From Patescibacteria group bacterium (lineage in GTDB: Bacteria > Patescibacteriota > Minisyncoccia > Phycocordibacterales > Zambryskibacteraceae), in contig JBBUBA010000012.1 of assembly GCA_038058485.1 (NCBI GenBank), forward strand, positions 1 through 44,752: a stretch of 44,752 nt of DNA, read 5' to 3'. Below the pieces are notes generated by a model. That model worked only from the letters and a program-made list of their open reading frames with translations, made no database searches and was not told the origin of the DNA. The position numbers and the translations under genes were made by a program. Positions 18,139 through 37,792 of the stretch are shown here, one piece after another; positions within the stretch are counted from its first letter, which is position 1; each line of letters opens with the position of its first letter.

Positions 18139-19356
18139 TTAGAGAAAGTGGTCGCCACGATCAGGTAGAGGGACAACAATCTGATCATCGCTTCTAATCA
18201 ATTCCTCCAACCACCAGTTAGCAGGGTTGTAAAGACAAGTGATCTCCGCACACTCCGAGGAAGCGTCGAAATCCTCGAGCATTATGCTTAGTGCTCGATG
18301 GGTTTCGATCTGGTGCGAAGTGGTGTAGGCGTCCTTTCCTGCCACCCGGGCGTTCTCTACTCCACGCTTGGCCGGACAGTGGAAGACTCCCAGAGGCGAA
18401 AGAACTTGCCGAAAGGCCATCATGTGGCAAGTCTTCGGTTGCCGGGTAAACTCGCGCCAGTTTCCTGTCATGAGAACTCGGAGGTTAGTACTTTCAAGAA
18501 CGAGGAATCTCTCATCCTCAAGAGTTTTCGCCTCCAAAACAGCCGCGGAGATCTGATCGAGAGTCTTCTCCGTGTTAACCATGACGCTAGGATCCATCAC
18601 TTCCGCTCCATCCTGGAAACGAGTCAGGAACGGTTTGAAGGAAATGTAACTGAATCCGCTTTGCTTCGCGAGTCTTGTAGCTCCCACGATCTCGTGAATG
18701 TTTGAAACGACATTGACCCCCTCCGTGCGCTCGGCTCCATCCCACACAATGATGTAGGAAAAACCGATTTGAACTTCCGGATTTGCAGAGCGGATTCTAG
18801 GCACCCAGGAGCAAATACCCTCGAGGTTGACAGCCTTACTTCGCGGATTGTGCATCCTCTGGAAGGTATCGTTCGTGCCCGAATCGAGTGAAAATCGAAT
18901 CCAGTCTCCACTTGAGAGTACTTGGACGGTTCTCTCTAGTACGTCGCCTCGAGACCCGTTTGTGACGATCCCGATCTTGACGTCACGCTCTTTGAGAAAA
19001 CGAACAGTTTCTTCAAACTTGGGATGGACAGTCGGTTCACCCCCACCGATGAGGATGACACTTCGGAGCCCACCCTGGGCCATGTTGTTGAGGGACTCGA
19101 AAAGCTCCGAATTGACATAATTCACACCGGTATTCAGTTTGTCCCAGTCGATGCAGTGACCACAGGCGTAATTGCAGGCCGTGGTCAAATCTAGGTTGAT
19201 AGAGACAAGCCTGATCTGAGGCATGGGCGGTGTCTCTTCGCCGGCAAGACGTGCTTTTCGAACAGCTCTTTGCCACTCGATGTATCTCTGAACTTCAGGA
19301 AGCAACTCTCCTTGCCGTAATTTGGCGGCAAAGTTGTGCTTGGGTGCGATGTTCAT
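18139..19356 (-). CDS. Radical SAM enzyme with C-terminal auxiliary-cluster (twitch/SPASM-like) Cys pattern, function unknown
   Basis: CNYACGHC (CX3CX2C), GGGEPT glycine-rich motif, and C-terminal C-x12-G-x3-C ... C-x4-C. GC-rich. GGAGGTGGT lies immediately upstream of the ATG. Confidence 0.85.
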   Translation of the reverse strand: MNIAPKHNFAAKLRQGELLPEVQRYIEWQRAVRKARLAGEETPPMPQIRLVSINLDLTTACNYACGHCIDWDKLNTGVNYVNSELFESLNNMAQGGLRSVILIGGGEPTVHPKFEETVRFLKERDVKIGIVTNGSRGDVLERTVQVLSSGDWIRFSLDSGTNDTFQRMHNPRSKAVNLEGICSWVPRIRSANPEVQIGFSYIIVWDGAERTEGVNVVSNIHEIVGATRLAKQSGFSYISFKPFLTRFQDGAEVMDPSVMVNTEKTLDQISAAVLEAKTLEDERFLVLESTNLRVLMTGNWREFTRQPKTCHMMAFRQVLSPLGVFHCPAKRGVENARVAGKDAYTTSHQIETHRALSIMLEDFDASSECAEITCLYNPANWWLEELIRSDDQIVVPLPDRGDHFL

Positions 19357-19443
19357 ACCACCTCCAATTGGTTGGGGTACAGGTCTAATGTAAGATTAGC
19401 ATTAAGCTAGCCAAGAAACAATTTTCAGTATAATGGGAAGAAA

Positions 19444-20124
19444 TTATCTAGTCTCAAGGATTTGGACACGCTCTGGTTTAGGTGTAGGGGCACGGAGAAT
19501 ACGCGCCAAGCGATAGGTGTATTGGCCCTGCCACAGTTCTAGAATTTGCACGGCAACCTCTTGTGGGAGCATGAAGGGAGTAGTGTCGCGATCCGTTCCC
19601 GACCAGAAATTGGTATTCATGCCAGCAGGTCCGACCACCAGAGTCTTTTTAATTCGTTTATCGAGAGAAACAGATTGCGCAAGCATGGCAAGCCCCGCCT
19701 TTACTGCAGAGTAAACAGGTTCAGTTTCCCGTGGGATCCATTGAGACGTCGAAGTGATGACGATCAATCCAGCGAGGGATCCTTGTTTCCTAATAATTCG
19801 CTGCAGGATAAGTGCGGGGGCTGTGATACCGACATTAACCATCTGGGCTATGTGATTATCGGAGAGCTCGGCAATCTGTCCATTTTCAAAAAATCCAGCC
19901 GCATATACAAGCAAATCAATAACAGGAAGCGTGGCTAGCATCTTGTCTAGATCGCTTCTAAGATGACTTAGATCTTCCGTAATGTTAAATTCCAAGAACA
20001 CTAGTCCTTGCGAAACAAGTTTGGGGGATCTGCCTGTGGTGTATATGCTGGCCCCTTTTTCCAAGAGTTTTGTTCCGATTTCTAAACCGAGGCCAGAGCT
20101 CCCTCCGACGATAAGCACATTCAT
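19444..20124 (-). CDS. Short-chain dehydrogenase/reductase (classical SDR)
   Basis: MNVLIVGGSSGLGLEIG cofactor motif and YSAVKAG (YxxxK). Start chosen at 20124, with TATCAT plus 6 nt upstream; the track ORF extends to 20190. Confidence 0.8.
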   Translation of the reverse strand: MNVLIVGGSSGLGLEIGTKLLEKGASIYTTGRSPKLVSQGLVFLEFNITEDLSHLRSDLDKMLATLPVIDLLVYAAGFFENGQIAELSDNHIAQMVNVGITAPALILQRIIRKQGSLAGLIVITSTSQWIPRETEPVYSAVKAGLAMLAQSVSLDKRIKKTLVVGPAGMNTNFWSGTDRDTTPFMLPQEVAVQILELWQGQYTYRLARILRAPTPKPERVQILETR

Positions 20125-20147
20125 AAGATTATGATAGCATTGAAAAT

Positions 20148-21299
20148 ATGTTACAGCGATTCTACAATGTCCTGTTCCTTTCTTCGTCATTCCTCGTTTC
20201 TATTTTTTTAGGTAAAGCCAATCGAGGGAACGTGGCCCCTCAAGTAGTTTTGATCGGGCAACTTGCGAAGCTTGGAGACATGGTTTGCACTACTCCCATG
20301 TTTCGAGCAGTTAAGAAGAAGTATCCAAAATGTAGATTAATCGTTGTTGGTCTTAGTGGAAACGAGGAACTTTTAAGAGGAAATTCGGATGTGGATGAAT
20401 ACCTAGCTTATACAGGTAACCCTTTCTCGTTATTGAAAAGGATAAGGAAGAGTGAATGTGATTTCGCCTGTATAGCTACACCAAATTTTGTTTTTCTTGC
20501 TCTTTTGTATTTGTCTGGAATTCCTCTGATTGCCGTACCTACAATAGTAAACGGCTTCAGTCCTTACGAAACTCGCTCCTATAAATTACTTCGAAATCTG
20601 GTAGCCACAGCTCCTCACAGTATGGGTTCCTATGCATCTAGGGAATATTTGCGCCTCCTCGAGTTAATTGGTATTACGGATCGTGACACGACAAAGCATC
20701 TCGTCTTTTCTAGGCAGGCTAGTGAACGTATAGATACTTTTTTGGGCACAATTGAAGTCCTTAAAAATGATTTTGTTGTTGGGATTACTCCCGGAGCAGG
20801 CAATAAATTAAAGCAGTGGCCACCTGAACGATTTGCTAGACTTTCTGATTATCTTATTCAACAATATAATGCAAGGATTATAATAATTGGGTCAAGAGGG
20901 GACATGGAAGAAGGAAAAGAGATGCTCAGTTTCTTAAAAAACAAGGATGGAGTAACTGACACTGTAGGTAATTTTTCAATAGATGAGTTGAAAGCCTTGG
21001 TTTCCAAGCTCAGTTTGTTTATAGGTGTTGATACGGGACCCATTTATATCGCAGAAGCTTTTGGGGTGCCTACTATTGATATCATTGGTCCAATGGATGA
21101 ACATGAACAGCCGCCGAGAGGAAGACTTAATGAAATCGTTGTTGCGGAAAGACTACAGCCAGTAATGCATATAATGAATGCAAGACAACTAGATGAGGTC
21201 GAAGCTAGACGACAGGTCGAAGCTATTACTGTTGAAATGGTAACTAAGGCAGTCGACAGAGTTTTGTCTCAACTAAATTTCAACCAAGAACGAGTTTGA
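20148..21299 (+). CDS. Glycosyltransferase family 9 (heptosyltransferase-like)
   Basis: LGDMVCTTPMFRAVKKKYP, GAGNKLKQWPPERF and IGVDTGPIYIAEAFGVPTIDIIGP match the GT9 pattern. There is a ~30-aa hydrophobic N-terminal extension, so the start is uncertain. Confidence 0.8.
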   Translation: MLQRFYNVLFLSSSFLVSIFLGKANRGNVAPQVVLIGQLAKLGDMVCTTPMFRAVKKKYPKCRLIVVGLSGNEELLRGNSDVDEYLAYTGNPFSLLKRIRKSECDFACIATPNFVFLALLYLSGIPLIAVPTIVNGFSPYETRSYKLLRNLVATAPHSMGSYASREYLRLLELIGITDRDTTKHLVFSRQASERIDTFLGTIEVLKNDFVVGITPGAGNKLKQWPPERFARLSDYLIQQYNARIIIIGSRGDMEEGKEMLSFLKNKDGVTDTVGNFSIDELKALVSKLSLFIGVDTGPIYIAEAFGVPTIDIIGPMDEHEQPPRGRLNEIVVAERLQPVMHIMNARQLDEVEARRQVEAITVEMVTKAVDRVLSQLNFNQERV

Positions 21300-22131
21300 G
21301 CAGATCTGTCCTAACATTTTTGTTCTCTACTGCTTTTGTGATCTCTTTCATAGTTATCGCGCCCGCTTGGTATGATTCTTTTATTAAATCAATGAAAAAT
21401 TGTTCCACATTTTTATTTGGATGAGGAAGATAGTGGGTTGGATATTTGCCGAGAAGTTTATGTATTGGCTCGCGGGGAATAATGCCGAATATTTTTGGTA
21501 AAGGGTTGATGGTGAAGTCTATTTGGAGGCCGGTTTTCCAAGGTTGAGTGAGTCTATTTGTTGTGTGTAGCATGTGTGTGTCCTTATCTAGCTTATCTAG
21601 ACTATTCCAGTCTCTAGAGAGCTCTTTAATTTCTGGTTCGAATTTAAGACTCATTATGTCAATGTAATCTGTCTGCTTTTTTTCTAAGGCGCTTAAAAAA
21701 TCTTTTATTTTCCAATGTTTGAGTTTGCTGTTGTCCATCACCATTACACTGGTATCCCAAGCATCTTTTTTCCTACAAGCAGCAAGAGGCTTACCTTGGA
21801 GATCCATGTTCATAAGAGGGGAGATATCACCGATAGCGAAGATATCTGGGTCGATAACTATTGAACGTCCTTCATACTTCATTTTTTCTGGAGGCATGAA
21901 GCGGGAGAGGGTGAAGGATTGTAAATCATTTGGGTCATAAGAGATCTCTCTACCACCTCTCAAGTATCTCTTGCCGGCAAAATTCTTAAATTCCTGAAGA
22001 TCGTCGACATTCAGGATTTCAATTTTTATCAGAGAATCTTTTGGCAGATGTTTTTCTATGGCGAATTTAGCTAGTAGTGCTCCCAGACCTTGTTTGTCGT
22101 TTGTATGAATGAAGATTTTGTTCACACGCAT
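21280..22131 (-). CDS. GT8-like nucleotide-diphospho-sugar glycosyltransferase (tentative)
   Basis: LSRFMPPE...SIVIDPDIFAIGDISPL resembles the GT8 DxD region. No other recognisable motif. Confidence 0.55.
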   Translation of the reverse strand: MRVNKIFIHTNDKQGLGALLAKFAIEKHLPKDSLIKIEILNVDDLQEFKNFAGKRYLRGGREISYDPNDLQSFTLSRFMPPEKMKYEGRSIVIDPDIFAIGDISPLMNMDLQGKPLAACRKKDAWDTSVMVMDNSKLKHWKIKDFLSALEKKQTDYIDIMSLKFEPEIKELSRDWNSLDKLDKDTHMLHTTNRLTQPWKTGLQIDFTINPLPKIFGIIPREPIHKLLGKYPTHYLPHPNKNVEQFFIDLIKESYQAGAITMKEITKAVENKNVRTDLLKLVLG

Positions 22132-22144
22132 ATATTAGCAAATT

Positions 22145-22180
22145 TAAAAACATAAGAAAAAGCCGCCCTTTTGGGGACGG
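22145..22180 (-). terminator. Intrinsic terminator of the second radical SAM gene
   Basis: Minus strand reads GCCGTCCCCAAAAGGGCGGC followed by TTTTTCTT. Positions approximate. Confidence 0.65.
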
Positions 22181-22187
22181 CCGACAT

Positions 22188-23150
22188 CTAGTACAGGGCA
22201 CAAGTTTCGCAGGCGGTGCCCTTGACGTTTCCATCAAGATGCGCTTGACGGAGGTTTTGGAAAGCGATGCTGTGCCAACCTTCTTCGAGGGAAACCTTGT
22301 TGAGATCTGCCATGGTCCATGAACCATTGGCATCAAAACAGCAAGCTGTGAGCATCCCACAAGAGGTGATGTGAGCCTCTGTGAAGACTGCCCAGCAAGG
22401 GATTGGATCGACGAGTCCACCGATCCTACCTTGGTTACCAGCTGTCGGTTTGATCCCGAGTTCCACCTCCCTCGCAATCGGTGATCCACCCATTGTGTAC
22501 GGAGGCAGTTCATAGGTGTGGTCGACGAACGGATCAACACGCTCCTCAAAAAACTTGATCATCCTCTCATGCTGTTCATCGTTGTAGCGAATTCTTGAAG
22601 CAGAGAGCTCACAGCGGTGTCCTGTTCGGTCGAGAATCTCATCTCGAATGTCCTTGGCCGCTTCGATGTTTTGTATGGCCATGTGGAAAAGCCGTTCAGG
22701 TCTCGCCGTTACTTCAGCGAACTGCTCTGGAGAGTCGTTGTTGACACTCCATTTGAGAGAAGTCAGTCCCGCTTCGATGACAGCTCGCACCTTTTCTGGT
22801 GTGGAAATCGTGGCATTCGAAGTCAAGAATCGGCCTTCAAATCCAAGCTCAGTCGCGAGCTTGATTGCAGGAATCAGAACTTCCATGGCGGTGAAAGACT
22901 CACCGATATAGAAGAACCCAATTTCCTTGATACCGAAGTCATGGCATTCTCTGATCATCCGCTCGAGAAATGACCACTCCATCGGCTTGGTCGGTTGTGA
23001 CTCCCGCTTTGTGAGAGCACAGAAACCACACCGAAGGTTGCAGATGCCGGTAACCTCTATCTTGACAGATTGAGGGGGTGGTGGCTTGGGACTACGGTGA
23101 GAGATGGGGATTTGTGCTACTCGGTCGATACGCTCTGTGATGGTGGGCAC
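22188..23150 (-). CDS. Radical SAM enzyme with truncated SPASM/twitch-like C-terminus, function unknown
   Basis: CNLRCGFC (CX3CX2C). C-terminal CWAVFTEAHITSCGMLTACC ... CETC. GTG start preceded by AAGGAG plus 5 nt. GC-rich. Confidence 0.85.
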   Translation of the reverse strand: MPTITERIDRVAQIPISHRSPKPPPPQSVKIEVTGICNLRCGFCALTKRESQPTKPMEWSFLERMIRECHDFGIKEIGFFYIGESFTAMEVLIPAIKLATELGFEGRFLTSNATISTPEKVRAVIEAGLTSLKWSVNNDSPEQFAEVTARPERLFHMAIQNIEAAKDIRDEILDRTGHRCELSASRIRYNDEQHERMIKFFEERVDPFVDHTYELPPYTMGGSPIAREVELGIKPTAGNQGRIGGLVDPIPCWAVFTEAHITSCGMLTACCFDANGSWTMADLNKVSLEEGWHSIAFQNLRQAHLDGNVKGTACETCALY

Positions 23151-23281
23151 AGGAACTCCTTTTTGTTGGTTGTCAAAGATGGTCTAGAAGGATAATACAG
23201 TATCTGGTAATTATTCTCAAGAAAAGTCCTACAAATTTAGGGTATGTTGCTTAGACGGTCTTGAGGGGTATAATGTCGCTA

Positions 23282-24256
23282 ATGAGCAAAGATAAGGGTT
23301 CTTTAGATAGAGCCCGGTTCACCCTTGAACAAGAAATATCGTCCATCATTCGTTTAAAAAAAACGATAAAAACCAACTTGGGTAAGGCCATAGCCATTCT
23401 TCGAAGTAGAAAAGGAAAGATTATCTTAACAGGTATTGGGAAATCTGGATTTATTGGCATGAAGATTTCCGCGACATTTACAAGCATGGGTAACCCTGCC
23501 GTTTTTTTGCACCCGGTAGAAGCTCTACACGGTGATACTGGAATGGTGTCTGATGGGGATGTGGTTATTGCTGTGTCCTTTTCTGGCAATTCTCGGGAAG
23601 TTGTAAGAATAGTAAAGTATCTAAAAAAGGAGTTTGCTATTAAGACTATATCTATAACTGGTAATAGGAGGTCACTACTGGCAAGAATTTCTGACGCTAA
23701 TATTGTTTTGAATGTACAAAAAGAAGGTAGTCCGTATGGTATGGCACCTATGGCCAGTACGACCACTTCTCTTGTCATTGGAGACATGTTGGTTTCTGCC
23801 ATTACTTCGCTCAGAAACTTCAAAAAATCAAATTTTGCAAAGCTTCATCCTAGTGGTTCTTTGGGTCTGGAATTTAAAACGGTAAAAAGTTACATGACTC
23901 CGAGGAAAGAAGTTCCTGTTGTGGTTGAAAAAGCAGATTCTAGAATGATGATTAATAAAATGAATAATAAGCATCCTGGAGTTGTCGCTGTGGTGAATTC
24001 AAGTGGCAAATTGACGGGAGTGGTTACAGATGGTGATGTTAGAAGGTTTCTGGTTTCTGGCAGAGAGATAGGAACTGCCAGAGTTAAGGAAATAATGACC
24101 AAGAATCCAAAAAAAATAAGAGAAACTAGCTCCTTGAAAACAGCTTTATCTACCATGGAAGATTTTAGAATAACGAGCTTGTTTGCGGTAGATAGTCGTA
24201 ATAAGCTGAAGGGAATTATTCATATACATGATATTGTTGGTGGAGTGATCATATAA
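23282..24256 (+). CDS. kpsF: KpsF/GutQ-family sugar-phosphate isomerase (SIS domain plus CBS pair), arabinose-5-phosphate isomerase-like
   Basis: GIGKSGFIGMKISATFTSMGNPAVFLHPVEALHGDTGMV followed by two CBS repeats. Start chosen 7 nt after TATAAT (23269-23274); the track starts at TTG 23261. Confidence 0.85.
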   Translation: MSKDKGSLDRARFTLEQEISSIIRLKKTIKTNLGKAIAILRSRKGKIILTGIGKSGFIGMKISATFTSMGNPAVFLHPVEALHGDTGMVSDGDVVIAVSFSGNSREVVRIVKYLKKEFAIKTISITGNRRSLLARISDANIVLNVQKEGSPYGMAPMASTTTSLVIGDMLVSAITSLRNFKKSNFAKLHPSGSLGLEFKTVKSYMTPRKEVPVVVEKADSRMMINKMNNKHPGVVAVVNSSGKLTGVVTDGDVRRFLVSGREIGTARVKEIMTKNPKKIRETSSLKTALSTMEDFRITSLFAVDSRNKLKGIIHIHDIVGGVII

Positions 24257-24263: not shown

Positions 24264-25733
24264 ATGGCAGTAATGGATTATAAATATAGTCTCGATTTCC
24301 TTGAAAAAATAAATCACTCTGTTTTTGAGGGTAAGCTTGATACTCGTGGAGTTTTTTATGAGGGATACAATATTTGGTATTTTTTTCAAGCTTCTCTGTT
24401 TGTTGACATCAAGAAGTTTAGTTTATCTAAAGAGATTCCACCTGAAAACAGGTTATCCATCAGTGGGTTCCTTGTTTCATTATTTTTCTTATTTTTCTCA
24501 CTTTGTTCCCTGTTTTTTTTGTCTTTAACGAGGAAAAGAGTTATGATCTTTTCGGTAGATTCTTTGTCTTCAAAATTCAAAAGCGATTACAGGATGGAAT
24601 CTCTCTATAGTTTTTTAGAAACAAAGGATATTGATTTCTTTGAAGTATTCCATACAATCCCGAGTAAAACCACAATGTTTCGTCTGTTCAAAAGAAGCCG
24701 CCTCACCATGTATCTTGAGTCGATAGATTTTATGTTTTTTATTAAACAAAAAATAGTCAGCTTTTTTTCCTTACCTAATAAAGATAATGATTTTGTAGAT
24801 TTGCTGCAGTTAAACGACTTTTCAGATAAAGAAAAATTATTTGCGGCATATTGCATCGGGAAATATTTCAAAGCAGTGCCCATATCGTTATTTAGGATTA
24901 AAATGCTCAAAAAGATTATCAAATTTTTGAAAGTCAAAACAATTTTAACTATTGATGACACTCGGCATTACAACGAACTTCTTGTAGCGGCCAAGCTTTG
25001 CGGTGTCCTAACCATTGCATTTCAACATGGGCATTACACGGGATATCATGTTGGCTGTCTTAGACAAGGTATTCCTGATAATCCTGTATCTTCAACCGTA
25101 CTCTGTGTCTGGAGCGAATATTGGAAGAAGGAATTACAAAGATTAAATTCGTTTTTCCCTTCCTCCTCAATTTTTGTAACTGGACCGACGTTTGATGCAG
25201 TGCAAATTCAGAAAAAATCTCTACAAACTAAGATAAACAATAAAAAAGATACAGTCTGTGTACTTATACCTTATGAAACGGATGCGCCAAAGAATGAAGC
25301 AAGATTATTTATTCATGAACTATTAAGGTATCCAAATGTGAAGATAATTTTTAAAACTAGGCCTAACAGAGACAAACAAAGTCAACTCGATGAATATGGA
25401 ATTCAAGATGGAAGGGTGGAGGTGGTACGCAGTCTTTCTGACGTCATAGCTGATGTGGATGTAGTGTTGGGTGTATACTCGACGATTCTCTATGACATGG
25501 TTGCTCTGGAAAAACATGTTTACATAATGGATACAGGCATGGACTACGGCCAAGGAATGATAATAAACGGCCTAGCGGACCGTTTGTATCTTAGGGATAT
25601 TAAAAAGGCTATCTCGGCTCATTCAGCTTCAGGAGAGATGCTTAAAGATCGAAAAGAAAAAGTTGTGGGTACAAATCCGCAACAAGTCGCAACGTCCCTC
25701 GAAGTCTTATTTAAGAAATATCAGATTATTTAA
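24264..25733 (+). CDS. Membrane-anchored protein with GT-B-like C-terminal half, putative glycan or nonulosonate transferase
   Basis: Hydrophobic segments at about residues 30-95. The FQHGHYTGYH and VLGVYSTILYDMVAL regions are reminiscent of capsule/sialyl-type transferases. No firm family call. Confidence 0.4.
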   Translation: MAVMDYKYSLDFLEKINHSVFEGKLDTRGVFYEGYNIWYFFQASLFVDIKKFSLSKEIPPENRLSISGFLVSLFFLFFSLCSLFFLSLTRKRVMIFSVDSLSSKFKSDYRMESLYSFLETKDIDFFEVFHTIPSKTTMFRLFKRSRLTMYLESIDFMFFIKQKIVSFFSLPNKDNDFVDLLQLNDFSDKEKLFAAYCIGKYFKAVPISLFRIKMLKKIIKFLKVKTILTIDDTRHYNELLVAAKLCGVLTIAFQHGHYTGYHVGCLRQGIPDNPVSSTVLCVWSEYWKKELQRLNSFFPSSSIFVTGPTFDAVQIQKKSLQTKINNKKDTVCVLIPYETDAPKNEARLFIHELLRYPNVKIIFKTRPNRDKQSQLDEYGIQDGRVEVVRSLSDVIADVDVVLGVYSTILYDMVALEKHVYIMDTGMDYGQGMIINGLADRLYLRDIKKAISAHSASGEMLKDRKEKVVGTNPQQVATSLEVLFKKYQII

Positions 25734-26461
25734 TGAGAAACTTTCTGTATAAGGTAAATAAATTGGTTAAAGAAATATTTACTTACCATAAGCTAACTAT
25801 GAGTGAGGTTGATTACGATGCTTATTGGCGGGACAAAAGGGGGAAGAATATTGGAGTCATGTCGGATTGGCAGATTGAGCGTGCAGACTTTGTCGTAAGT
25901 ATCTTAAACGGTAAAAAAAATATATCCATATCTGATATAGCTTGTGGTGAGGGATCAATACTAAATTATATTGGTAAGAGTTTAGGCGTAAGTAAACTTA
26001 TTGGTACGGATATATCAAACGTTGCTCTTGATCGAGCAAAAGGCTTTGGCATAGAAGTTAGAAGGTTGGATATTGAAGATACTAAAGAACTTGAAAAAAT
26101 ACCGAAGGCCGATTATCAAATTTTATTTGAAATTCTTGAACACGTACCACACTCTGAGGAGCTTCTAAGGTCTGCTGTAAGTAAGGCGATAGCGGGTGTA
26201 TTTTTTTCTTTCCCAAACACTGGTTTTTTTGTGCACCGCTTGAGGCTCTTATTTGGACGGTTTCCGCTTCAGTGGAGGCTTTTCCCGGGAGAGCATATAA
26301 GATTTTGGACCAAGAGAGATCTTGTCTGGTGGCTATACAGTCTTGGATATTCAGACTTTAAAATTCATTTTTACAAAGGAGTACCAATATTAAATAAGAT
26401 CTGGCCATCACTTTTTGCTGCTGGATTCGTCGTCTATTTGGCTAAAGCTGGCACATCATGA
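25733..26461 (+). CDS. Class I SAM-dependent methyltransferase (MetW-like)
   Basis: Motif I DIACGEGSIL and FEILEHVP. Confidence 0.75.
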   Translation: MRNFLYKVNKLVKEIFTYHKLTMSEVDYDAYWRDKRGKNIGVMSDWQIERADFVVSILNGKKNISISDIACGEGSILNYIGKSLGVSKLIGTDISNVALDRAKGFGIEVRRLDIEDTKELEKIPKADYQILFEILEHVPHSEELLRSAVSKAIAGVFFSFPNTGFFVHRLRLLFGRFPLQWRLFPGEHIRFWTKRDLVWWLYSLGYSDFKIHFYKGVPILNKIWPSLFAAGFVVYLAKAGTS

Positions 26462-28263
26462 TAAGGATAAAAACCAATCCATTGATAGATATCAAAAATA
26501 ATGTCTTCTCCCTCTTAAGACTTCTGTATCATGCCTTTAAAACATACAAAACTAAGATTGTTATTCTTACCTTTCTTGGCATGTTGAGTGGTCTTGTAGA
26601 AGCCGTAGGAGTCAGTACGGTTATTCCTCTTTTTTCCTTTCTGACTGGTGCTGGTGAGGGCACAGATTTTATATCTCAAACAGTGGAAAAAGGTTTTTAT
26701 TTTATTGGAATTCCATTTACCATGCGATACGTCTTGGGATTTGTTATTTTGTTGTTTATATTTCGAACGGTTGCTCTTTTTTTTGCTAACTACATACGCA
26801 TTAGTATCACTGCCGATTATGAAGAGAGGACTCGAACTGATTTGTTCAACAAGACTCTAAAGGCTAGCTGGTCACTTTTATTGAAACAAAAACTTGGCCA
26901 CCTTGAAACGATGATGATGGTTAATATTTCTCACGGAGAACGGCTTTTGAACACAGTAAGTAGTCTGACGGTGATTGTCACAGGATTGGCTATGTACACT
27001 CTAGTTGCCCTAAACATCTCTTTCAACGTTACCGTCATAACAGTCCTGTTAAGCGCTTTCCTGTTAGTTTTTATAAAACCGTTGATTAGTCGGACACATA
27101 CTCTAGCCAAAGAGGTCGAATTAGTGAATCGCCAGGTTGCTCACCATGTAAATGAAAACATTTTGGGAATGAAGACCATCAAGTCCATGCAGGTTGATCA
27201 TCAAATTCTTGAGATAGGCAAACGCTTCTTCAGCACACTACGAAGGCTGAAGGTGAGGATCGCCTTTTTTCGCCTAATCCCAGTCTCCCTCATGCAGCCA
27301 CTAGGACTCATTTTTGTTGTTCTTATTTTTGCCTACTCATATAAGAGTTCCAACTTCAATTTAGCTGCCTTTTTGGCAGTTATGTATCTTATACAGAGAA
27401 TGTTTATTTTCGTTGAGCAATTCCAGAGTCAGCTTCATATTGCCATTGAATCCTCGCCATATTTGCAGGAGGTCGTTGATTATGCCGCTAGATTTAGTGG
27501 GCAGGAGGAAGGGTCTCCTGGTTCAAGAAAGTTTTCTTTTGATAACCAACTTGTTTTTCAAGATGTGGAATTTGCTTATGCTAACCGTCGGGCGGTATTG
27601 CAGGATGTAAATTTCACGATACCTCGTGGGAGCACTGTTGGACTGATTGGGCCCTCTGGTTCGGGCAAAACAACTATTGTAGACATGATGCTTAGGCTCT
27701 TTAAACCCACGGCAGGAAAAATTTCAATAGATGGAAACGACATTGAAAGTATTGATATTCATGAGTGGAGAAGAAGCATCGGGTATGTTGCCCAAGACAT
27801 TTTTCTTATCAACGATACTATTGCTAACAATGTCCGTTTCTATGATTCTGAGTTAACCAGAGACGAGATTGAAAGTGCCATAAAGATGGCTGATATGGAT
27901 GATTTTATCAAAGAGTTACCTTCGGGGTTAGATACAGTTGTTGGGGAGCGCGGCATTCAGTTGTCTGGTGGGCAGCGTCAGCGGATTATTATTGCTCGGG
28001 TTCTTGCCAGAAAACCAAAGATTCTAATTTTAGACGAGGCAACAAGCGCACTAGATGGTGAATCAGAAACTCAAATTCAAAATGTTATTAAAAAAATTAA
28101 AGGCCAAGTAACTGTAATTATTATTGCTCACCGTCTATCGACAATAATGCATTCAGACGAGATTGTTGTACTTGATAATGGAAGGATTGTTGAAAAAGGA
28201 TTACCAGAAGATTTATTGAACGATAAGGATTCTTATTTTTACAAAGTCTATACAATGGCATAG
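26458..28263 (+). CDS. ABC exporter, fused permease/ATPase (MsbA-like)
   Basis: Six predicted TM helices, then Walker A GPSGSGKTT, signature LSGGQRQR and Walker B ILILDEATS. Confidence 0.9.
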   Translation: MIRIKTNPLIDIKNNVFSLLRLLYHAFKTYKTKIVILTFLGMLSGLVEAVGVSTVIPLFSFLTGAGEGTDFISQTVEKGFYFIGIPFTMRYVLGFVILLFIFRTVALFFANYIRISITADYEERTRTDLFNKTLKASWSLLLKQKLGHLETMMMVNISHGERLLNTVSSLTVIVTGLAMYTLVALNISFNVTVITVLLSAFLLVFIKPLISRTHTLAKEVELVNRQVAHHVNENILGMKTIKSMQVDHQILEIGKRFFSTLRRLKVRIAFFRLIPVSLMQPLGLIFVVLIFAYSYKSSNFNLAAFLAVMYLIQRMFIFVEQFQSQLHIAIESSPYLQEVVDYAARFSGQEEGSPGSRKFSFDNQLVFQDVEFAYANRRAVLQDVNFTIPRGSTVGLIGPSGSGKTTIVDMMLRLFKPTAGKISIDGNDIESIDIHEWRRSIGYVAQDIFLINDTIANNVRFYDSELTRDEIESAIKMADMDDFIKELPSGLDTVVGERGIQLSGGQRQRIIIARVLARKPKILILDEATSALDGESETQIQNVIKKIKGQVTVIIIAHRLSTIMHSDEIVVLDNGRIVEKGLPEDLLNDKDSYFYKVYTMA

Positions 28264-28264
28264 C

Positions 28265-29722
28265 ATGAAAAGTAAACGCATTTTTTTGATCTGGAATGGA
28301 GGTGAACAAGAAGTTCGGTCTATTATTCAAAAGCTCGAAGCAGACTCGCACAAAGTGGTATACGTAATTAGTAATGGCACCAGCCAGTTTTCCTTAGATG
28401 GCATCATCGTTCATTTGGACAACGATGCTAGGAGGGGCATTGCGGCTAAAGGAATTGATGAGAGCGAATTCTTTCCCCCAGACAAAGAATTGATAAGGGT
28501 TATGTTTAAGACAGAGTCCCTTATCCTCACTATGATGAATCGAAAAGTAGACTCTCCTGCTAAGCCCATGTCTTTGGACGAAAAGAAGCATTTCTATTAT
28601 CACCTTCTACGATACTGGCATGGCGTGTTTAAAAAATACCAACCTGATCTCATTATTTTTCCAGCAGTACCCCATAATGTCTCTAATTTCACTATTTATT
28701 CTCTCGCTAAATGCTTCAATACCCCCACCGCCCTTTTTCAAGAAACTTGGGCTTCCGACAGAATTCTTCTTCAATTCGCCTACGACCAAGAAAGCTTAAT
28801 GCTTTCAACGGCTCTCAATAAAAACAAGGGAAAGATTTTTTCTCCAGAAAGCCTAAGCCCTGATCTTGAGAGGTACTATCGTCTTCACACCGACTCAGCT
28901 GGAGACGCCACACCCTTTGATGTCTTAGTACAAGCCAAGCGTTACAGAGGTCTCGAGCGACTCTCTCTTAAACTCGAAGCAGTCCTCTCTAGTCTTAAGG
29001 ATCTTACTTTCTTCATTAAAGCCTGGAAATATATAAGACGAATGATTCAACCAAATCTTAAAAAAGATTACAATCGCCTAACGGTTGATCTAGATTTCAA
29101 AAAACCTTTCGTCTACATGCCACTCCATTGGCAACCCGAATGCACGACCAGTCCATTAGGAGATATGTATGTTGATCAGCTTCTGATGATTGAAACCCTG
29201 TCGGTTGCCTTACCAGAAGGATGGAGACTCTATGTTAAGGAACATCCTTTCCAATGGTCTGTTGACGGAGTGACCACATATTCGAACATGAGATATAGGG
29301 GTTATTATGAACACCTAGCCAAACTCAAGGGGGTGTTCTTAGTAGATGTTTCAACTGATACTTATACCCTCCTTGCGCATTCTAAGGCGGTGGCGACGAT
29401 TACTGGTCGCGCAGGAATAGAGGCTGTTTTAAGAGGCAAGCCAGTTTTAGTTTTTGGTTATCCATGGTACATGAGTCTCCCTGGAATTTTCCGTATAACA
29501 GGACCTTCGGAGTGCCAGAAATCACTTCAGAGTATCAAAGACGGTTATGTTCCGGACAAAAACGAAGTTCTCAATTATTTGAAGAGTTTTGATGAGAGTA
29601 CAGGTAGGGGTTACATTGAACCCTTGGGGAAGATGAATACGGCTATTAGTCGAGAGAAAAGTATTTCAGAAGTATTACGCCTACTTGAAATAGGTATGAA
29701 AAGATGCGATAGTAAGAAATAA
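28265..29722 (+). CDS. Capsule polysaccharide biosynthesis protein family (KpsS/KpsC-like transferase)
   Basis: FVYMPLHWQPECTTSPLGDMYVDQLLMIETLSVALPEGWRLYVKEHP and ATITGRAGIEAVLRGKPVLVFG fit my recollection of the Capsule_synth family pattern. Confidence 0.6.
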   Translation: MKSKRIFLIWNGGEQEVRSIIQKLEADSHKVVYVISNGTSQFSLDGIIVHLDNDARRGIAAKGIDESEFFPPDKELIRVMFKTESLILTMMNRKVDSPAKPMSLDEKKHFYYHLLRYWHGVFKKYQPDLIIFPAVPHNVSNFTIYSLAKCFNTPTALFQETWASDRILLQFAYDQESLMLSTALNKNKGKIFSPESLSPDLERYYRLHTDSAGDATPFDVLVQAKRYRGLERLSLKLEAVLSSLKDLTFFIKAWKYIRRMIQPNLKKDYNRLTVDLDFKKPFVYMPLHWQPECTTSPLGDMYVDQLLMIETLSVALPEGWRLYVKEHPFQWSVDGVTTYSNMRYRGYYEHLAKLKGVFLVDVSTDTYTLLAHSKAVATITGRAGIEAVLRGKPVLVFGYPWYMSLPGIFRITGPSECQKSLQSIKDGYVPDKNEVLNYLKSFDESTGRGYIEPLGKMNTAISREKSISEVLRLLEIGMKRCDSKK

Positions 29723-29723: not shown

Positions 29724-30737
29724 TTGGCCAAAACAAAACACGCTTTTCTAAAGGGTAAGACAATGCTTATAACTGGTGGAACAGGCTCTTTTGGCCGTAA
29801 TTTCGTCAAATATCTTCTGGAAACTTCTGACTTAAAGAAGCTAATCATCTTAAGTCGAGACGAACTCAAGCAATCTCAAATGAGATCCCAGATCAGAGAT
29901 AAGAGGCTCCGTTTTTTTATTGGTGATGTCCGGGATTTACAGCGTCTTGAGCGCGCCTTCAATGGGGTTGATATGGTCGTTCATGCGGCCGCCCTCAAGC
30001 AAGTTCCTACTCTTGAGTACAATCCTTTTGAGGCAGTAAAGACCAATATCTTGGGTAGTCAAAATGTGATAGATGCTGCGATTGATCAAGGGGTGAAGAA
30101 GGTGGTTCTTATTTCCACTGATAAGGCCGCTTCACCAACCAATCTTTATGGATCGACCAAGTTGTGTGCGGAGAGGCTTTTCATAAGTGGTAATGCTTAT
30201 ACTGCCGATGATACTTTATTAAGTTGTGTCCGATATGGAAATGTAGTAGGGAGTAGAGGGAGCGTGGTAGATGTTCTACTTAGGAATCCCGATCAATCTA
30301 CTGTTACAATTACTCACGAGGAGATGACACGTTTTTGGATAAACCTTGAACAAAGTTTCACGCTGGTACTTTTCACCCTTGAAAAGATGTCTGGAGGGGA
30401 GATATTTGTCCCCAAGATTCCAAGTATGAAAGTGGCTGATCTTTTTCACGCACTGGCTCCTAAGGCTAAGAAAAAAGTGACAGGAATGAGACCAGGAGAA
30501 AAGCTCCACGAGCTTTTATTGACCAAAGAAGAGGCTCGCCATGCTATAGAGCTTGAGGATTATTATGTCATTCTTCCGGAACATGATGAACTTTTCAATA
30601 ACAATATCCGTTTCAAAAAGATACTCAGCCAAAGTAAGAAGTTGCCCAAGAACTTTAGCTACTCAAGTGATACAAACCATAAGTGGCTGACCCAAGATGA
30701 GTTCCGTAAAATGGTGAGTTCCAGTCAACTTCTATGA
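29724..30737 (+). CDS. pseB: UDP-N-acetylglucosamine 4,6-dehydratase (inverting), PseB type (probable start ATG 29763)
   Basis: LITGGTGSFG..LSRDELKQSQM..RFFIGDVRD..STDKAA.P.NLYG.TKLC..VRYGNVVGSRGSV..FVPKIPSMK..RPGEKLHE is co-linear with PseB/FlaA1. Confidence 0.85.
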   Translation: MAKTKHAFLKGKTMLITGGTGSFGRNFVKYLLETSDLKKLIILSRDELKQSQMRSQIRDKRLRFFIGDVRDLQRLERAFNGVDMVVHAAALKQVPTLEYNPFEAVKTNILGSQNVIDAAIDQGVKKVVLISTDKAASPTNLYGSTKLCAERLFISGNAYTADDTLLSCVRYGNVVGSRGSVVDVLLRNPDQSTVTITHEEMTRFWINLEQSFTLVLFTLEKMSGGEIFVPKIPSMKVADLFHALAPKAKKKVTGMRPGEKLHELLLTKEEARHAIELEDYYVILPEHDELFNNNIRFKKILSQSKKLPKNFSYSSDTNHKWLTQDEFRKMVSSSQLL

Positions 30738-31837
30738 TCCCTTATGGCAAGCAAGAGATAACCTCTCAAGATATCTCTGCAGTTGTTAAGGTTCTGAAAT
30801 CAGATTTCTTAACTCAAGGTCCGCAAATAGCCGAGTTTGAAAAAGAGTTTGCAAAGTATGTCGGCGCGAAGTATGCGGTGGCTGTGGCTAATGGCACAGC
30901 GGCACTTCACATCAGTGCTCTGGCTCTGGGGGTGAGCAAAAAAAGTCACGCTATTACCACTCCCATCACTTTTGTCGCTTCGGGCAATTGCGTGCTCTAC
31001 GCTGGAGGTCAGGTGGAATTTGCAGATATAAATTCCGAGACCCTGATCCTAGATGTTAAAAAAATCAAACAACTTCTTGAAAGTAAACCCAAGAATTATT
31101 ACTCAGGACTGATCGTGGTGGATATGGCCGGGTATCCAGCTGACTTAAAAGCCTTTAGGAAACTTGCAGACAAACACGGACTCTGGATCATAGAAGATGC
31201 TTGCCATGCCCTTGGTTGTGGAAATGGAAAATTCGCTGATGTTTCTACTTTCTCCTTTCACCCCGTTAAACATATTACTACTGGCGAGGGAGGCATGATC
31301 ACCACCAATCGCCAGGATCTGTATGAAAAACTATTAAGATTACGCACGCATGGCATTACGAAGGACCCAAGGCGCCTTAAGGAGCGTCACGGCGGTTGGT
31401 ATTATGAAATGCAGGATCTCGGGTTTAATTATAGGATGACTGATATCCAGGCAACTTTGGGCCGAAGCCAGCTTAAAAGAGCACGTAAAAATCTTGCTAA
31501 ACGCCGTAAAATTGCTCGAGTATATGATCAGGCATTTAAAAACACGAGCATACAGATTTCGCCAAAATGTCTAGGGCATGCCTACCATCTTTATATTATT
31601 CAAACAAAAAAACGTAAAGAGCTATACGATTATCTCCACGACAATGGAATCTTAGTTCAAGTACATTACATCCCAATGCACTTGCATCCTTTCTACAAAA
31701 AAATGGGTTGGAAGAAGGGCAATTTCCCCAAGGCGGAGGCTTATTATGAAAAAGCCTTGAGTCTACCCATGTACCCAACACTGACAAACAAAGAGCAGAA
31801 GTTCGTGATTAAAAAAGTGTTAGAATTCATAAAATAA
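30734..31837 (+). CDS. pseC: DegT/PseC-type PLP aminotransferase (UDP-4-amino-4,6-dideoxy-sugar transaminase)
   Basis: MIPYGKQEIT..DFLTQGP.., FSFHPVKHITTGEGG (catalytic Lys) and VHYIPMHLHPFY. Confidence 0.85.
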   Translation: MIPYGKQEITSQDISAVVKVLKSDFLTQGPQIAEFEKEFAKYVGAKYAVAVANGTAALHISALALGVSKKSHAITTPITFVASGNCVLYAGGQVEFADINSETLILDVKKIKQLLESKPKNYYSGLIVVDMAGYPADLKAFRKLADKHGLWIIEDACHALGCGNGKFADVSTFSFHPVKHITTGEGGMITTNRQDLYEKLLRLRTHGITKDPRRLKERHGGWYYEMQDLGFNYRMTDIQATLGRSQLKRARKNLAKRRKIARVYDQAFKNTSIQISPKCLGHAYHLYIIQTKKRKELYDYLHDNGILVQVHYIPMHLHPFYKKMGWKKGNFPKAEAYYEKALSLPMYPTLTNKEQKFVIKKVLEFIK

Positions 31838-31841
31838 CATT

Positions 31842-34240: not shown

Positions 34241-34253
34241 TATTTTTGGATGA

Positions 34254-37069: not shown

Positions 37070-37078
37070 GGTTGAGCC

Positions 37079-37750: not shown

Positions 37751-37792
37751 TCTAAATTAGAGGGCTACTTTATAAAATGCTAGGATACAGCC

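What the first reader, a model, noticed from the sequence alone, without database searches (positions are those of the whole stretch)
18139..23150. Two radical-SAM enzymes bracketing SDR, GT9 and GT8-like genes inside a glycan locus: candidate undescribed radical sugar-tailoring module
The first radical SAM enzyme (18139..19356) has CNYACGHC plus C-x12-G-x3-C...C-x4-C. The second (22188..23150) has CNLRCGFC plus C-x11-CG-x4-CC...CETC. Each combines a canonical CX3CX2C site with a short auxiliary-cluster pattern like the twitch/SPASM domains. BtrN, a twitch-domain enzyme, is a radical sugar dehydrogenase. The two genes flank a classical SDR, a heptosyltransferase-family GT9 and a GT8-like transferase, and sit directly next to KpsF. 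I know of no characterised nucleotide-sugar or nonulosonate pathway with this gene set. The arrangement suggests radical oxidation, epimerisation or C-C chemistry on a heptose, Kdo-like or nonulosonic sugar before transfer. This is my best candidate for novel biochemistry in the window, but the function is inference only.
Basis: inference. Interest (0 to 1): 0.72.

Follow-up and report, generated by a model that had tools for sequence, protein, structure and literature searches.

The report
Two separate radical-SAM sugar-tailoring gene pairs
The five genes are real, but they are not one pathway: two unrelated, uncharacterised radical-SAM gene pairs have been inserted into a conserved cell-surface sugar locus of a tiny candidate-phyla bacterium, one pair shared with Planctomycetes and Myxobacteria and the other with uncultured phages.

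Summary
Observation confirmed. All five ORFs and every cysteine motif are at the stated coordinates, and the cysteines are invariant across each family.

Interpretation partly supported. Both radical-SAM proteins fall below every curated family cut-off and sit repeatedly among glycan genes. They do not form one module. In 334 related loci the two families never co-occur outside this window.

Cassette 1 is SDR→rSAM1. In 80 genomes, rSAM1 relatives follow an NAD(P) oxidoreductase in 74. This is Gfo/Idh/MocA in Planctomycetota and Myxococcota, and an SDR in CPR bacteria. A Nudix-like gene (28/80) and a GT9 heptosyltransferase (19/80; WaaF-type in cultured Saltatorellus ferox) often accompany it. 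The predicted fold is nearest BlsE, DesII, viperin and MoaA.

Cassette 2 is rSAM2→GT8-like. rSAM2 is a one-auxiliary-cluster (twitch) enzyme. A GT8-like transferase lies next to it in 5 of 6 CPR loci and 46 of 80 uncultured-phage loci. The phage and CPR partners are homologous (HHalign 98.5%). Burkholderiales carry stand-alone copies.

Both radical-SAM genes have foreign base composition (GC3 0.55-0.57 versus 0.29-0.39 for the genes immediately flanking the block).

Most likely function is radical oxidation or elimination on activated sugars. For rSAM1 this would be followed by ketoreduction, as in AprD4/AprD3. The chemistry is inferred, not shown.

The parts
18139..19356 (-). rSAM1: radical-SAM enzyme, 405 aa. 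It has a CX3CX2C site (C61/65/68), a GGGEP SAM motif (104-108), a conserved N-terminal helix (H7, F9, K12, Q15, Y25, W28) and a C-terminal four-Cys site (C310, C327, C369, C374).
   Evidence: AF2 model: pLDDT 91. Foldseek top hits are BlsE, SkfB, DesII, viperin and MoaA. GC 0.516 and GC3 0.574.
19444..20124 (-). Classical SDR, the partner of rSAM1. It lies upstream on the same strand with an 87-nt gap. The ORF runs to 20190, but the likely start is M23 at 20124.
   Evidence: adh_short 74 bits. The Gly-rich VGGSSGLG motif and YSAVK are visible in the translation. The same SDR sits next to rSAM1 in L006 (72%), L007, L008, L010, L014, L023 and L035.
20148..21299 (+). GT9 (heptosyltransferase-family, GT-B) glycosyltransferase. 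It is part of the conserved CPR glycan core and a frequent neighbour of rSAM1.
   Evidence: Glyco_transf_9 67.2 bits. PDB hits 3tov and 1psw/WaaF. Relatives at 44-48% identity sit next to rSAM1 in L006, L023, L035, L038 and L083. A GT9 also lies in the GT8-like loci L005, L088 and L171.
21280..22131 (-). GT8-like GT-A glycosyltransferase, 283 aa, with an invariant DxD (D94, D96). It is the partner of rSAM2, downstream on the same strand.
   Evidence: Glyco_transf_8 32.9 bits, cut-off 24.3. 707 relatives, the named ones all CPR. Adjacent to rSAM2 in L005, L088, L168 and L334. Homologous to the phage partner family phrog_28018 (HHalign 98.5%, E 3e-15).
22161..22182 (-). Terminator-like hairpin (8 pairs, 6 G-C, T-rich tail) in the 56-nt gap between the rSAM2 stop and the GT8-like start.
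   Evidence: This is a consensus match only; the number of such sites in the region does not exceed shuffles.
22188..23150 (-). rSAM2: twitch-type radical-SAM enzyme, 320 aa. It has CX3CX2C (C37/41/44) and one auxiliary-cluster site (C252, C270/C271, C314, C317).
   Evidence: AF2 model: pLDDT 82.7. Foldseek top hits are SuiB, DesII, viperin, anSME, BtrN and BlsE. GC 0.518 and GC3 0.555.
23192..23220 (-). Sigma-70-like promoter match (10 of 12) 42 nt upstream of the rSAM2 start.
   Evidence: Consensus match only.
23261..24256 (+). KpsF/GutQ-family arabinose-5-phosphate isomerase (SIS + 2 CBS domains). A conserved neighbour of rSAM2 in CPR.
   Evidence: TIGR00393 254.9 bits, cut-off 203.7. Adjacent to rSAM2 in L088, L168 and L334. 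Adjacent to the GT8-like gene without rSAM2 in L172.
24264..25733 (+). 489-aa protein with no family assignment. A conserved member of the CPR core.
   Evidence: No Pfam or PDB match. Relatives at 34-36% identity lie next to rSAM2 in L005 and L088. Genes of the same size and position occur in L168, L334 and L171.
25733..26461 (+). SAM-dependent methyltransferase of the conserved CPR core.
   Evidence: Methyltransf_23. 46% identical relatives in L005 and L088.

Best explanation
The block is a mosaic. A conserved CPR surface-glycan core carries two independent accessory cassettes, each built around an uncharacterised radical-SAM enzyme. The core consists of GT9, the GT8-like transferase, KpsF, a 489-aa protein and a methyltransferase.

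Cassette 1 is SDR→rSAM1, next to GT9. rSAM1 most likely binds a nucleotide-activated sugar, with the heptose-type donor of the adjacent GT9 as the leading candidate. It would abstract a sugar hydrogen with the 5'-deoxyadenosyl radical and eliminate or oxidise a neighbouring hydroxyl to give a keto-sugar. The C-terminal cluster would handle the electron or bind the substrate. The partner NAD(P)H oxidoreductase would then reduce the ketone. The net result would be deoxygenation or epimerisation, in the manner of AprD4/AprD3.

Cassette 2 is rSAM2→GT8-like. rSAM2 is a twitch-type enzyme that most likely oxidises or epimerises a sugar, as BtrN, HygY or DesII do. It would act either on the donor used by the GT8-like transferase or on the residue that transferase installs. 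This pair circulates on uncultured phages.

Shown here: gene identities, conserved Cys sites, partner conservation, independence of the two cassettes, phage carriage, and foreign base composition. Inferred: substrate class and all chemistry.
For: Independence of the cassettes:
- 0 of 80 rSAM1 loci have rSAM2 or the GT8-like gene, and 0 of 160 rSAM2 loci have rSAM1 or the SDR.
- The core exists without either cassette in L171 and L172.

Cassette 1:
- An oxidoreductase lies immediately upstream in 67+2 (Gfo/Idh/MocA) plus 5 (SDR) of 80 loci.
- The genes overlap by 4 bp in L001.
- Gfo is replaced by a non-orthologous SDR in CPR.
- A Nudix-like gene, with weak YffH/AdpP/NudK-type matches far below cut-off, occurs in 28 of 80 loci.
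- GT9 lies downstream in 19 of 80 loci. In Saltatorellus ferox it passes the heptosyltransferase II equivalog (150 bits, cut-off 134.6).
- Best fold matches are enzymes with nucleotide or nucleoside-sugar substrates: BlsE, DesII (TMq 0.61), viperin and MoaA.
- There is a precedent for a radical-SAM dehydratase with an NADPH reductase partner (PMC5461906).

Cassette 2:
- A GT8-like gene is adjacent in the window, L005, L088, L168 and L334.
- It is adjacent in 46 of 80 viral loci. The viral and CPR partners are homologous.
- All four BtrN auxiliary-cluster ligands align with invariant Cys.
- Glycan context also occurs in Elusimicrobia and in phage loci with Gmd-like, DegT, methyltransferase and GT genes.

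Foreign origin:
- GC3 is 0.574 and 0.555, against 0.29-0.39 for the genes immediately flanking the block (GT4a, GT4b, GT9, GT8-like, KpsF, unk489, MT242, ABC) and up to 0.53 elsewhere in the window.
- The same excess is seen in other CPR loci.
Against: - No substrate, product or cluster has been measured.
- rSAM2's top fold hit is the peptide maturase SuiB.
- Many rSAM2 relatives are stand-alone genes near ccoNOQP, fnr, ribonucleotide reductase and ccm in Burkholderiales, with no glycan gene nearby. One CPR copy is also stand-alone (L333).
- 26 of 66 viral loci with enough flanking DNA show no partner.
- 5 of 79 informative rSAM1 loci lack a detectable oxidoreductase.
- No heptose-nucleotide synthesis genes (gmhA, hldE, gmhB) are in the window.
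- Fold similarities have TM about 0.5-0.6 and are shared with many radical-SAM enzymes.
Confidence: 0.6

Rival explanations
1. One reading: the two radical-SAM enzymes, the SDR, GT9 and GT8-like transferase form one integrated pathway that makes and transfers a single novel sugar.
For: The genes are physically contiguous in the window. The GT9 is a neighbour of both cassettes in different genomes, so both could act on the same glycan.
Against: The two families never co-occur in 334 related loci. Each has its own conserved partner. The transcription units differ, and a terminator-like hairpin follows rSAM2. The core exists without either cassette.
Confidence: 0.08
2. rSAM2 is a protein or peptide maturase (anSME-, SuiB- or epimerase-like). 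It would modify a surface or virion protein, or the glycosyltransferase's protein acceptor, rather than a sugar.
For: The top Foldseek hits include SuiB, anSME, SkfB and EpeE. It carries a SPASM/twitch domain. In phages it lies beside terminase, portal and capsid genes.
Against: At 320 aa it has no N-terminal peptide-recognition domain. It has one auxiliary cluster, not two. No conserved small ORF stood out in the neighbourhood clustering, which used a minimum of 70 aa. The conserved partner is a glycosyltransferase. BtrN, DesII and BlsE score similarly.
Confidence: 0.12
3. rSAM2 is a housekeeping, oxygen-independent enzyme of central metabolism, and its position in glycan loci is incidental.
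For: About half of the sampled cellular relatives are stand-alone, near ccoNOQP, ccoG, a Crp/Fnr regulator, NrdD and ccm genes. These copies are at least 67-73% identical to some phage copies.
Against: A homologous GT8-like gene is adjacent, often with overlapping coding regions, in CPR and in 46 of 80 phage loci. A housekeeping enzyme is not expected as a phage accessory gene next to sugar genes.
Confidence: 0.1
4. rSAM1 is a viperin-like or MoaA-like enzyme acting on a free nucleotide (antiviral ddh-nucleotide or cofactor synthesis), not on a sugar for a glycan.
For: The best profile hits are prokaryotic viperin (NCBIfam 62.4 bits; PADLOC pVip 65 bits) and MoaA. Viperin and MoaA are among the fold matches.
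Against: Scores are far below cut-off (62 against 180) and cover only the N-terminal half of the profiles. No defence or molybdopterin genes are nearby. Its constant partners are an oxidoreductase, a Nudix-like protein and GT9. It has an extra 130-aa C-terminal Cys domain.
Confidence: 0.07

Closest known systems
AprD4/AprD3 (radical-SAM diol dehydratase plus NADPH reductase; C3'-deoxygenation of paromamine)
   Same: A radical-SAM enzyme is encoded with a dedicated NAD(P)H oxidoreductase and acts on a carbohydrate (PMC5461906). rSAM1 has such a partner in 74 of 79 informative loci.
   Different: No sequence relationship was tested because no AprD4 sequence was at hand. The substrate here is presumed to be nucleotide-activated and destined for a GT9, not an aminoglycoside. 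The partner is Gfo/Idh/MocA or a classical SDR.
DesII (TDP-4-amino-4,6-dideoxyglucose deaminase/dehydrogenase) and BlsE (cytosylglucuronate decarboxylase)
   Same: These are the best structural matches of the rSAM1 model (BlsE E 5.5e-13; DesII TMq 0.61) and are among the top matches of rSAM2. Both act on nucleotide- or nucleoside-linked sugars.
   Different: Identity is 13-17%, with no profile-level membership (TIGR04466 rSAM_BlsE 28.5 bits for the S. ferox relative of rSAM1, L070, against a cut-off of 400). rSAM1 has its own invariant N-terminal helix and four-Cys C-terminal domain.
BtrN (2-deoxy-scyllo-inosamine dehydrogenase, the founding twitch-domain enzyme)
   Same: The rSAM2 C-terminus aligns with the BtrN twitch domain. 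All four auxiliary-cluster Cys positions are matched by invariant Cys. TMt is 0.67.
   Different: The whole-protein E-value is only 1e-3. rSAM2 is about 70 residues longer, has a conserved CC doublet and a GNQGR motif, and is partnered with a glycosyltransferase.
Viperin / prokaryotic pVip
   Same: This is the best sequence-profile hit for the rSAM1 core.
   Different: The hit is below cut-off (62 against 180 bits) and covers only the N-terminal half. The genomic context and C-terminal domain differ.
LPS inner-core toolkit (KdsD/KpsF, GT9 WaaC/WaaF, GT8 WaaI/J-type)
   Same: The CPR core combines the same three families. In S. ferox the rSAM1 cassette ends in a WaaF-type gene.
   Different: No KdsA, WaaA or heptose-nucleotide genes are in the window. 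Whether CPR bacteria make LPS is not addressed by these data (my recollection is that they are not known to). The GT9 and GT8-like proteins fall below the specific equivalog cut-offs.

Membership tests
Radical SAM superfamily (both proteins) | CX3CX2C cluster motif, SAM-binding GGE-type motif and a partial TIM-barrel core | tested here: met
   PF04055 scores 61.4 and 44.8 bits against a cut-off of 29.5. The motifs are invariant. GGGEP (rSAM1) and GES (rSAM2) are conserved. The AF2 models give radical-SAM folds.
SPASM subclass (two auxiliary clusters) | A seven-Cys C-terminal motif that binds two extra [4Fe-4S] clusters | tested here: not met
   rSAM2 hits PF13186 (34.3 bits), but only five C-terminal Cys are invariant (C252, C270, C271, C314, C317). 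rSAM1 has no SPASM hit.
Twitch subclass (one auxiliary cluster, BtrN-like) - rSAM2 | Cys, then a beta-hairpin, then Cys ... CxxC, ligating one auxiliary cluster | tested here: met
   In the HMMER alignment to BtrN 4m7t, residues 252-317 align with 189-255 and all four ligand positions are occupied by invariant Cys. A hairpin is predicted at E258-261/E266-268. Cluster binding itself is not testable here.
Twitch-like auxiliary site - rSAM1 | Four conserved Cys around a beta-hairpin after the core | tested here: inconclusive
   C310, C327, C369 and C374 are invariant. A hairpin at E316-320/E323-325 lies between C310 and C327. There is no SPASM/twitch profile hit, and the C-terminus does not align with rSAM2.
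BtrN / radical-SAM sugar dehydrogenase family | Whole-length homology to BtrN | tested here: not met
   E 1.1e-3, with no single stretch significant on its own.
Viperin / pVip | Score above the NF038283 cut-off and full-length match including the C-terminal nucleotide-binding part | tested here: not met
   62.4 bits against a cut-off of 180. Profile positions 3-156 of 281 only. PADLOC pVip positions 1-141 of 257.
MoaA, anSME, PqqE, mycofactocin and other curated radical-SAM equivalogs | Score above the curated cut-off | tested here: not met
   All hits score 62 bits or less against cut-offs of 130-650.
GT9 heptosyltransferase family (20148-21299) | PF01075 domain; a specific WaaC/F/Q equivalog | tested here: inconclusive
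   Family level is met (67.2 bits, cut-off 22; PDB 3tov E 5e-17). The specific equivalogs are not met (80.3 against 170.2, and 71.3 against 134.6). The donor sugar is not testable.
GT8 (21280-22131) | PF01501 domain with a DxD motif | tested here: met
   32.9 bits against a cut-off of 24.3. D94 and D96 are invariant in 30 sequences. The match is divergent: the only PDB hit has E 0.17.
KpsF/GutQ arabinose-5-phosphate isomerase (23261-24256) | SIS plus tandem CBS domains, and a score above the TIGR00393 cut-off | tested here: met
   254.9 bits against 203.7. SIS and CBS domains are present.
AprD4/AprD3-type deoxygenation pair | A radical-SAM dehydratase encoded with a dedicated NAD(P)H reductase; homology to AprD4 | tested here: inconclusive
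   The pairing feature is met. Homology was not tested because no sequence was available. Activity is not testable.

The most novel reading that the evidence does not exclude
Both cassettes would represent undescribed carbohydrate radical chemistry with wide reach. (i) The oxidoreductase-rSAM1-(Nudix)-GT9 operon would be a new route to a modified heptose-type nucleotide sugar, used in the envelope of Planctomycetota, Myxococcota and CPR bacteria. (ii) The rSAM2/GT8-like pair would be a phage-borne glycan-editing device that rewrites a host surface receptor or decorates the virion. CPR bacteria would have captured it, and Burkholderiales would have domesticated it as a stand-alone gene.
Probability: 0.25. 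Interest if true: 0.8.

Novelty: new variant of a known kind. Interest (0 to 1): 0.58.

Why it matters
Few radical-SAM enzymes that act on sugars have been characterised (BtrN, DesII, AprD4, BlsE and some others). Almost all come from antibiotic pathways.

Two large, well-conserved and unnamed families appear here in cell-envelope glycan loci. rSAM1 relatives were found in 494 of about 185,000 species genomes. rSAM2 relatives were found on at least 533 metagenome contigs and 204 viral contigs.

Each family has a constant partner that narrows the chemistry to be tested. One host is a cultured organism, Saltatorellus ferox Poly30, where genetics may be possible.

If the phage link holds, rSAM2 with its GT8-like partner would be a new class of phage accessory gene for glycan modification. 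The result also shows that surface glycans of CPR bacteria are diversified by horizontally acquired tailoring cassettes.

Tried and rejected
- Greedy and all-ORF clustering of neighbours in GC-rich loci was swamped by antisense ORFs. I replaced it with targeted tblastn using defined partner proteins.
- BLASTP between the window's GT8-like protein and the phage partner found nothing. Only profile-profile comparison showed the homology.
- Cultured-phage genomes (INPHARED) and plasmids hold no rSAM2 relative.
- Plasmids hold one 29%-identical rSAM1 paralogue in an unannotated Streptomyces replicon. It was not followed further.
- BFVD viral structures gave only 16-18% identical radical-SAM proteins.
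- Seven literature searches found no characterised member. They found only notes of uncharacterised radical-SAM genes in a Campylobacter capsule locus and in pelagimyophage host-recognition clusters.
- HHalign of the two radical-SAM families against each other aligned only the core.
- The viperin/defence reading was rejected on PADLOC and NCBIfam scores.
- Model coordinates could not be accessed to measure Cys-Cys distances.

Full report
**Observation**

The window comes from a Patescibacteria (CPR) metagenome-assembled genome; 100%-identical proteins P0001 and P0121 sit on a 56,697-bp contig. All five ORFs and KpsF lie at the stated coordinates.

Pfam confirms each assignment: Radical_SAM in both outer genes, a SPASM-type domain only in the second, and adh_short, Glyco_transf_9 and Glyco_transf_8 in the inner three. 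NCBIfam places the neighbour above the KpsF/GutQ cut-off.

They are not chance. C61/65/68 plus C182, C310, C327, C369 and C374 are invariant in 30 rSAM1 relatives. C37/41/44 plus C252, C270, C271, C314 and C317 are invariant in 31 rSAM2 relatives.

The SDR ORF is probably 22 codons too long. Relatives are 226-227 aa, and alignments begin at residue 18-20.

**Neither enzyme belongs to a named family**

Against NCBIfam the best hits are prokaryotic viperin (62 bits, cut-off 180) for rSAM1 and the tungsten-cofactor maturase or MoaA (about 40 bits, cut-offs 284-380) for rSAM2. All cover only the common core. PDB sequence searches give only weak core or twitch-domain matches: viperin-like proteins for rSAM1, and SuiB and BtrN for rSAM2.

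Both are nevertheless members of large, well-conserved families. There are 2,169 and 1,754 database clusters with E ≤ 1e-3. The best 120 of each are full length at 45-83% identity.

**The two enzymes are not one module**

I fetched 80 genomic loci around rSAM1 relatives (494 found among GTDB species genomes). I also fetched 80 viral loci and a dozen loci with called genes.

Targeted tblastn with the window's proteins shows that no rSAM1 locus carries rSAM2 or the GT8-like gene. No rSAM2 locus carries rSAM1 or the SDR. The only double hits are 25-29% cross-matches of the shared core.

Profile-profile comparison of the two families aligns only residues 49-212 of rSAM1.

The surrounding CPR core comprises GT9, the GT8-like transferase, KpsF, a ~490-aa protein of unknown family and a methyltransferase. 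This core occurs without either radical-SAM gene in L171 and L172. The window is therefore, so far, the only place where both cassettes have landed either side of that core.

**Cassette 1: SDR→rSAM1**

| Feature in the 80 genomic loci | Count |
|---|---|
| Gfo/Idh/MocA oxidoreductase directly upstream | 67 |
| The same, truncated at a contig end | 2 more |
| The window's SDR instead (all CPR or unclassified 'bacterium') | 5 |
| Locus cut at the gene (uninformative) | 1 |
| No detectable oxidoreductase (L038, L055, L066, L076, L083) | 5 |
| 230-aa Nudix-like protein | 28 |
| GT9 directly downstream | 19 |

- In L001 the three genes overlap by 4 bp.
- The 230-aa protein has NCBIfam matches to YffH/AdpP- and NudK-type NDP-sugar pyrophosphatases. 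These are weak: 37 bits against a cut-off of 79.6.
- In cultured Saltatorellus ferox Poly30 the downstream GT9 passes the heptosyltransferase II equivalog, 150 bits against 134.6.
- In CPR the arrangement is SDR-rSAM1 with the window-type GT9 alongside, at 44-48% identity, in L006, L023 and L035; L038 and L083 carry the GT9 but no SDR.
- Replacement of the Gfo partner by an unrelated SDR, with the radical-SAM gene kept at 52-56% identity, argues that an NAD(P)-dependent redox step is functionally coupled to rSAM1.
- The AlphaFold model is confident (pLDDT 91). Its nearest solved structures are BlsE, SkfB, DesII (TMq up to 0.61), viperin and MoaA. Four of these five use nucleotide- or nucleoside-linked substrates.
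- The known AprD4/AprD3 pair shows that a radical-SAM dehydratase with an NADPH reductase partner achieves sugar deoxygenation (PMC5461906).

My preferred mechanism follows from this. rSAM1 abstracts a hydrogen from a nucleotide-activated sugar and eliminates or oxidises a hydroxyl to give a keto-sugar. The partner oxidoreductase reduces it, and GT9 transfers the product. A heptose-type donor is the leading guess because of the GT9 and Nudix-like neighbours. Only the gene associations and fold similarity are shown; the rest is inference. The window itself holds no heptose-nucleotide genes.

**Cassette 2: rSAM2→GT8-like**

rSAM2 carries one auxiliary-cluster site, not the seven-Cys SPASM motif. 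HMMER aligns residues 252-317 with the BtrN twitch domain, and all four BtrN ligand positions fall on invariant Cys.

In CPR, a GT8-like gene is adjacent in the window, L005 (83% identity for rSAM2, 63% for GT8-like), L088, L168 and L334. KpsF is adjacent in four of these, and the ~490-aa protein in all five. One CPR copy, L333, stands alone. An Elusimicrobia copy lies in an O-antigen-like locus beside a FAD oxidoreductase.

The family is unexpectedly abundant on IMG/VR viral contigs, with 204 full-length relatives at 43-53% identity. rSAM1 has none.

- In 46 of 80 viral loci a ~243-aa protein (phrog_28018, no Pfam hit) is adjacent, often with overlapping coding regions. Among the 66 viral loci with at least 900 nt of flank on each side, 35 have the partner adjacent and 5 farther away.
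- BLAST does not link this protein to the window's GT8-like protein.
- HHalign of the two family alignments gives 98.5% probability, E 3e-15 over 182 columns, including the DxD motif.
- The pair is therefore a conserved two-gene unit shared by CPR bacteria and phages.
- The viral loci contain terminase, portal, major head and virion structural proteins by PHROGs. They also contain a Gmd-like nucleotide-sugar enzyme, a DegT aminotransferase, methyltransferases and further GT-like genes.
- A 54%-identical copy lies in another phage-like region, directly after an MptE-like/methyltransferase gene.
- No cultured phage or plasmid carries a relative.

By contrast, about half of the metagenomic relatives are stand-alone genes. 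Burkholderiales examples lie next to ribonucleotide reductase, ccm, ccoNOQP/ccoG and a Crp/Fnr regulator. These copies are at least 67-73% identical to some partner-linked phage copies. The enzyme can therefore work without an adjacent transferase.

The rSAM2 model (pLDDT 82.7) matches SuiB, DesII, viperin, anSME, BtrN (TMt 0.67) and BlsE about equally. Fold alone does not decide between sugar and peptide substrates.

I favour a BtrN/DesII/HygY-like oxidation or epimerisation of a sugar linked to the GT8-like transfer step. (HygY's activity is cited from my own knowledge.) A peptide or protein substrate and an unrelated anaerobic housekeeping role remain as rivals.

**Foreign origin**

The two radical-SAM genes have GC 0.516 and 0.518, and GC3 0.574 and 0.555. 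The genes immediately flanking the block have GC 0.35-0.40 and GC3 0.29-0.39 (GT4a, GT4b, GT9, GT8-like, KpsF, unk489, MT242, ABC); further out in the window GC3 reaches about 0.53.

The same excess (+0.005 to +0.17 GC) is seen for the orthologues in every other CPR locus examined. The GT8-like gene is not anomalous.

The block also breaks the strand uniformity of the ORFs on either side of it, from 5.0 to 44.6 kb. A promoter-like site precedes rSAM2 and a terminator-like hairpin follows it (consensus matches only). All of this fits repeated horizontal insertion of accessory cassettes.

**Context of the window**

The locus holds six GT4 genes, an AsnB-type amidotransferase and an ABC exporter. 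It also holds a KpsC/KpsS-type Capsule_synth protein and a pseudaminic/legionaminic-type nonulosonate block (29.7-39.2 kb). An O-antigen-ligase-like Wzy_C protein closes the locus. No KdsA or heptose-nucleotide genes were seen.

**Verdict**

- The 'radical sugar-tailoring' idea is reasonable and gains support from neighbourhood conservation.
- The finding should be re-framed as two independent, horizontally mobile cassettes built on two uncharacterised radical-SAM families.
- Function is unproven.
- Novelty is at the level of new variants of a known kind of enzyme (radical-SAM carbohydrate tailoring). The phage-borne pair is the least expected element.

Noticed in passing
window 22188-23150; loci L173-L252, L170: The rSAM2 family is common on predicted viral contigs: 204 full-length relatives in IMG/VR. 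It often lies just upstream of terminase, portal and capsid genes, alongside sugar-nucleotide and GT genes. It is absent from 50,697 cultured-phage records.
   Followed up: partly
window 18139-19356 and 22188-23150; L005, L006, L007, L023, L035, L088, L168, L333, L334: In nearly every CPR locus examined the radical-SAM gene is 5-17 GC points richer than its surroundings, with GC3 up to 0.75. The exception is L038, where the excess is only 0.005. The anomaly persists across relatives only 54-83% identical, so simple one-off transfer followed by amelioration does not explain it.
   Followed up: partly
L003, L004, L096, L107, L113 (relatives of rSAM2): Stand-alone rSAM2 copies in Burkholderiales-type contigs lie near cbb3 oxidase genes (ccoNOP, ccoG), a Crp/Fnr regulator, class II and class III ribonucleotide reductases and ccm genes. 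This hints at low-oxygen regulation.
   Followed up: no
L070 4181-8312 (Saltatorellus ferox Poly30, NZ_CP036434): A cultured planctomycete carries the full operon: Nudix-like gene, Gfo/Idh/MocA, rSAM1 and a WaaF-type GT9. It lies next to PEP carboxylase and offers a tractable system for genetics.
   Followed up: partly
window 24264-25733: A 489-aa protein is conserved beside KpsF, rSAM2 and the GT8-like gene in CPR loci. It has no Pfam, NCBIfam, PHROG, PADLOC or PDB match. It may be an unrecognised transferase or polymerase.
   Followed up: partly
window 28265-29722 and 26458-28263: A Capsule_synth (KpsC/KpsS-type, beta-Kdo-transferase-like) protein lies next to an ABC exporter, and KpsF is nearby. 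This is a capsule-like export arrangement in a CPR genome.
   Followed up: no
window 29724-39231: A nonulosonate block is present: PseB-like dehydratase, DegT aminotransferase, cytidylyltransferase, NeuB, formyltransferase, ATP-grasp, Nudix, PIG-L deacetylase, and HisH/HisF-like amidotransferase. The formyltransferase (34254-34889) also has raised GC (0.509).
   Followed up: no
window 381-839: A LAGLIDADG homing-endonuclease ORF lies at the start of the window. No rRNA or intron RNA was detected by Rfam in the window.
   Followed up: no
window 7915-9579: A VirD4/TrwB/HerA-like ATPase gene sits between a Mur-ligase-like gene and the first GT4 of the glycan locus.
   Followed up: no
window 22161-22182: A strong-looking hairpin with a T-tail lies exactly in the 56-nt gap between rSAM2 and the GT8-like gene. 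It suggests rSAM2 may be transcribed as its own unit, or that read-through is attenuated.
   Followed up: no
L332 9001-9828 (Streptomyces sp. BHT-5-2 plasmid p1): The only plasmid hit for rSAM1 is a 29%-identical paralogue on a 2.8-Mb linear Streptomyces replicon with no annotation. It may lie in a natural-product cluster.
   Followed up: no
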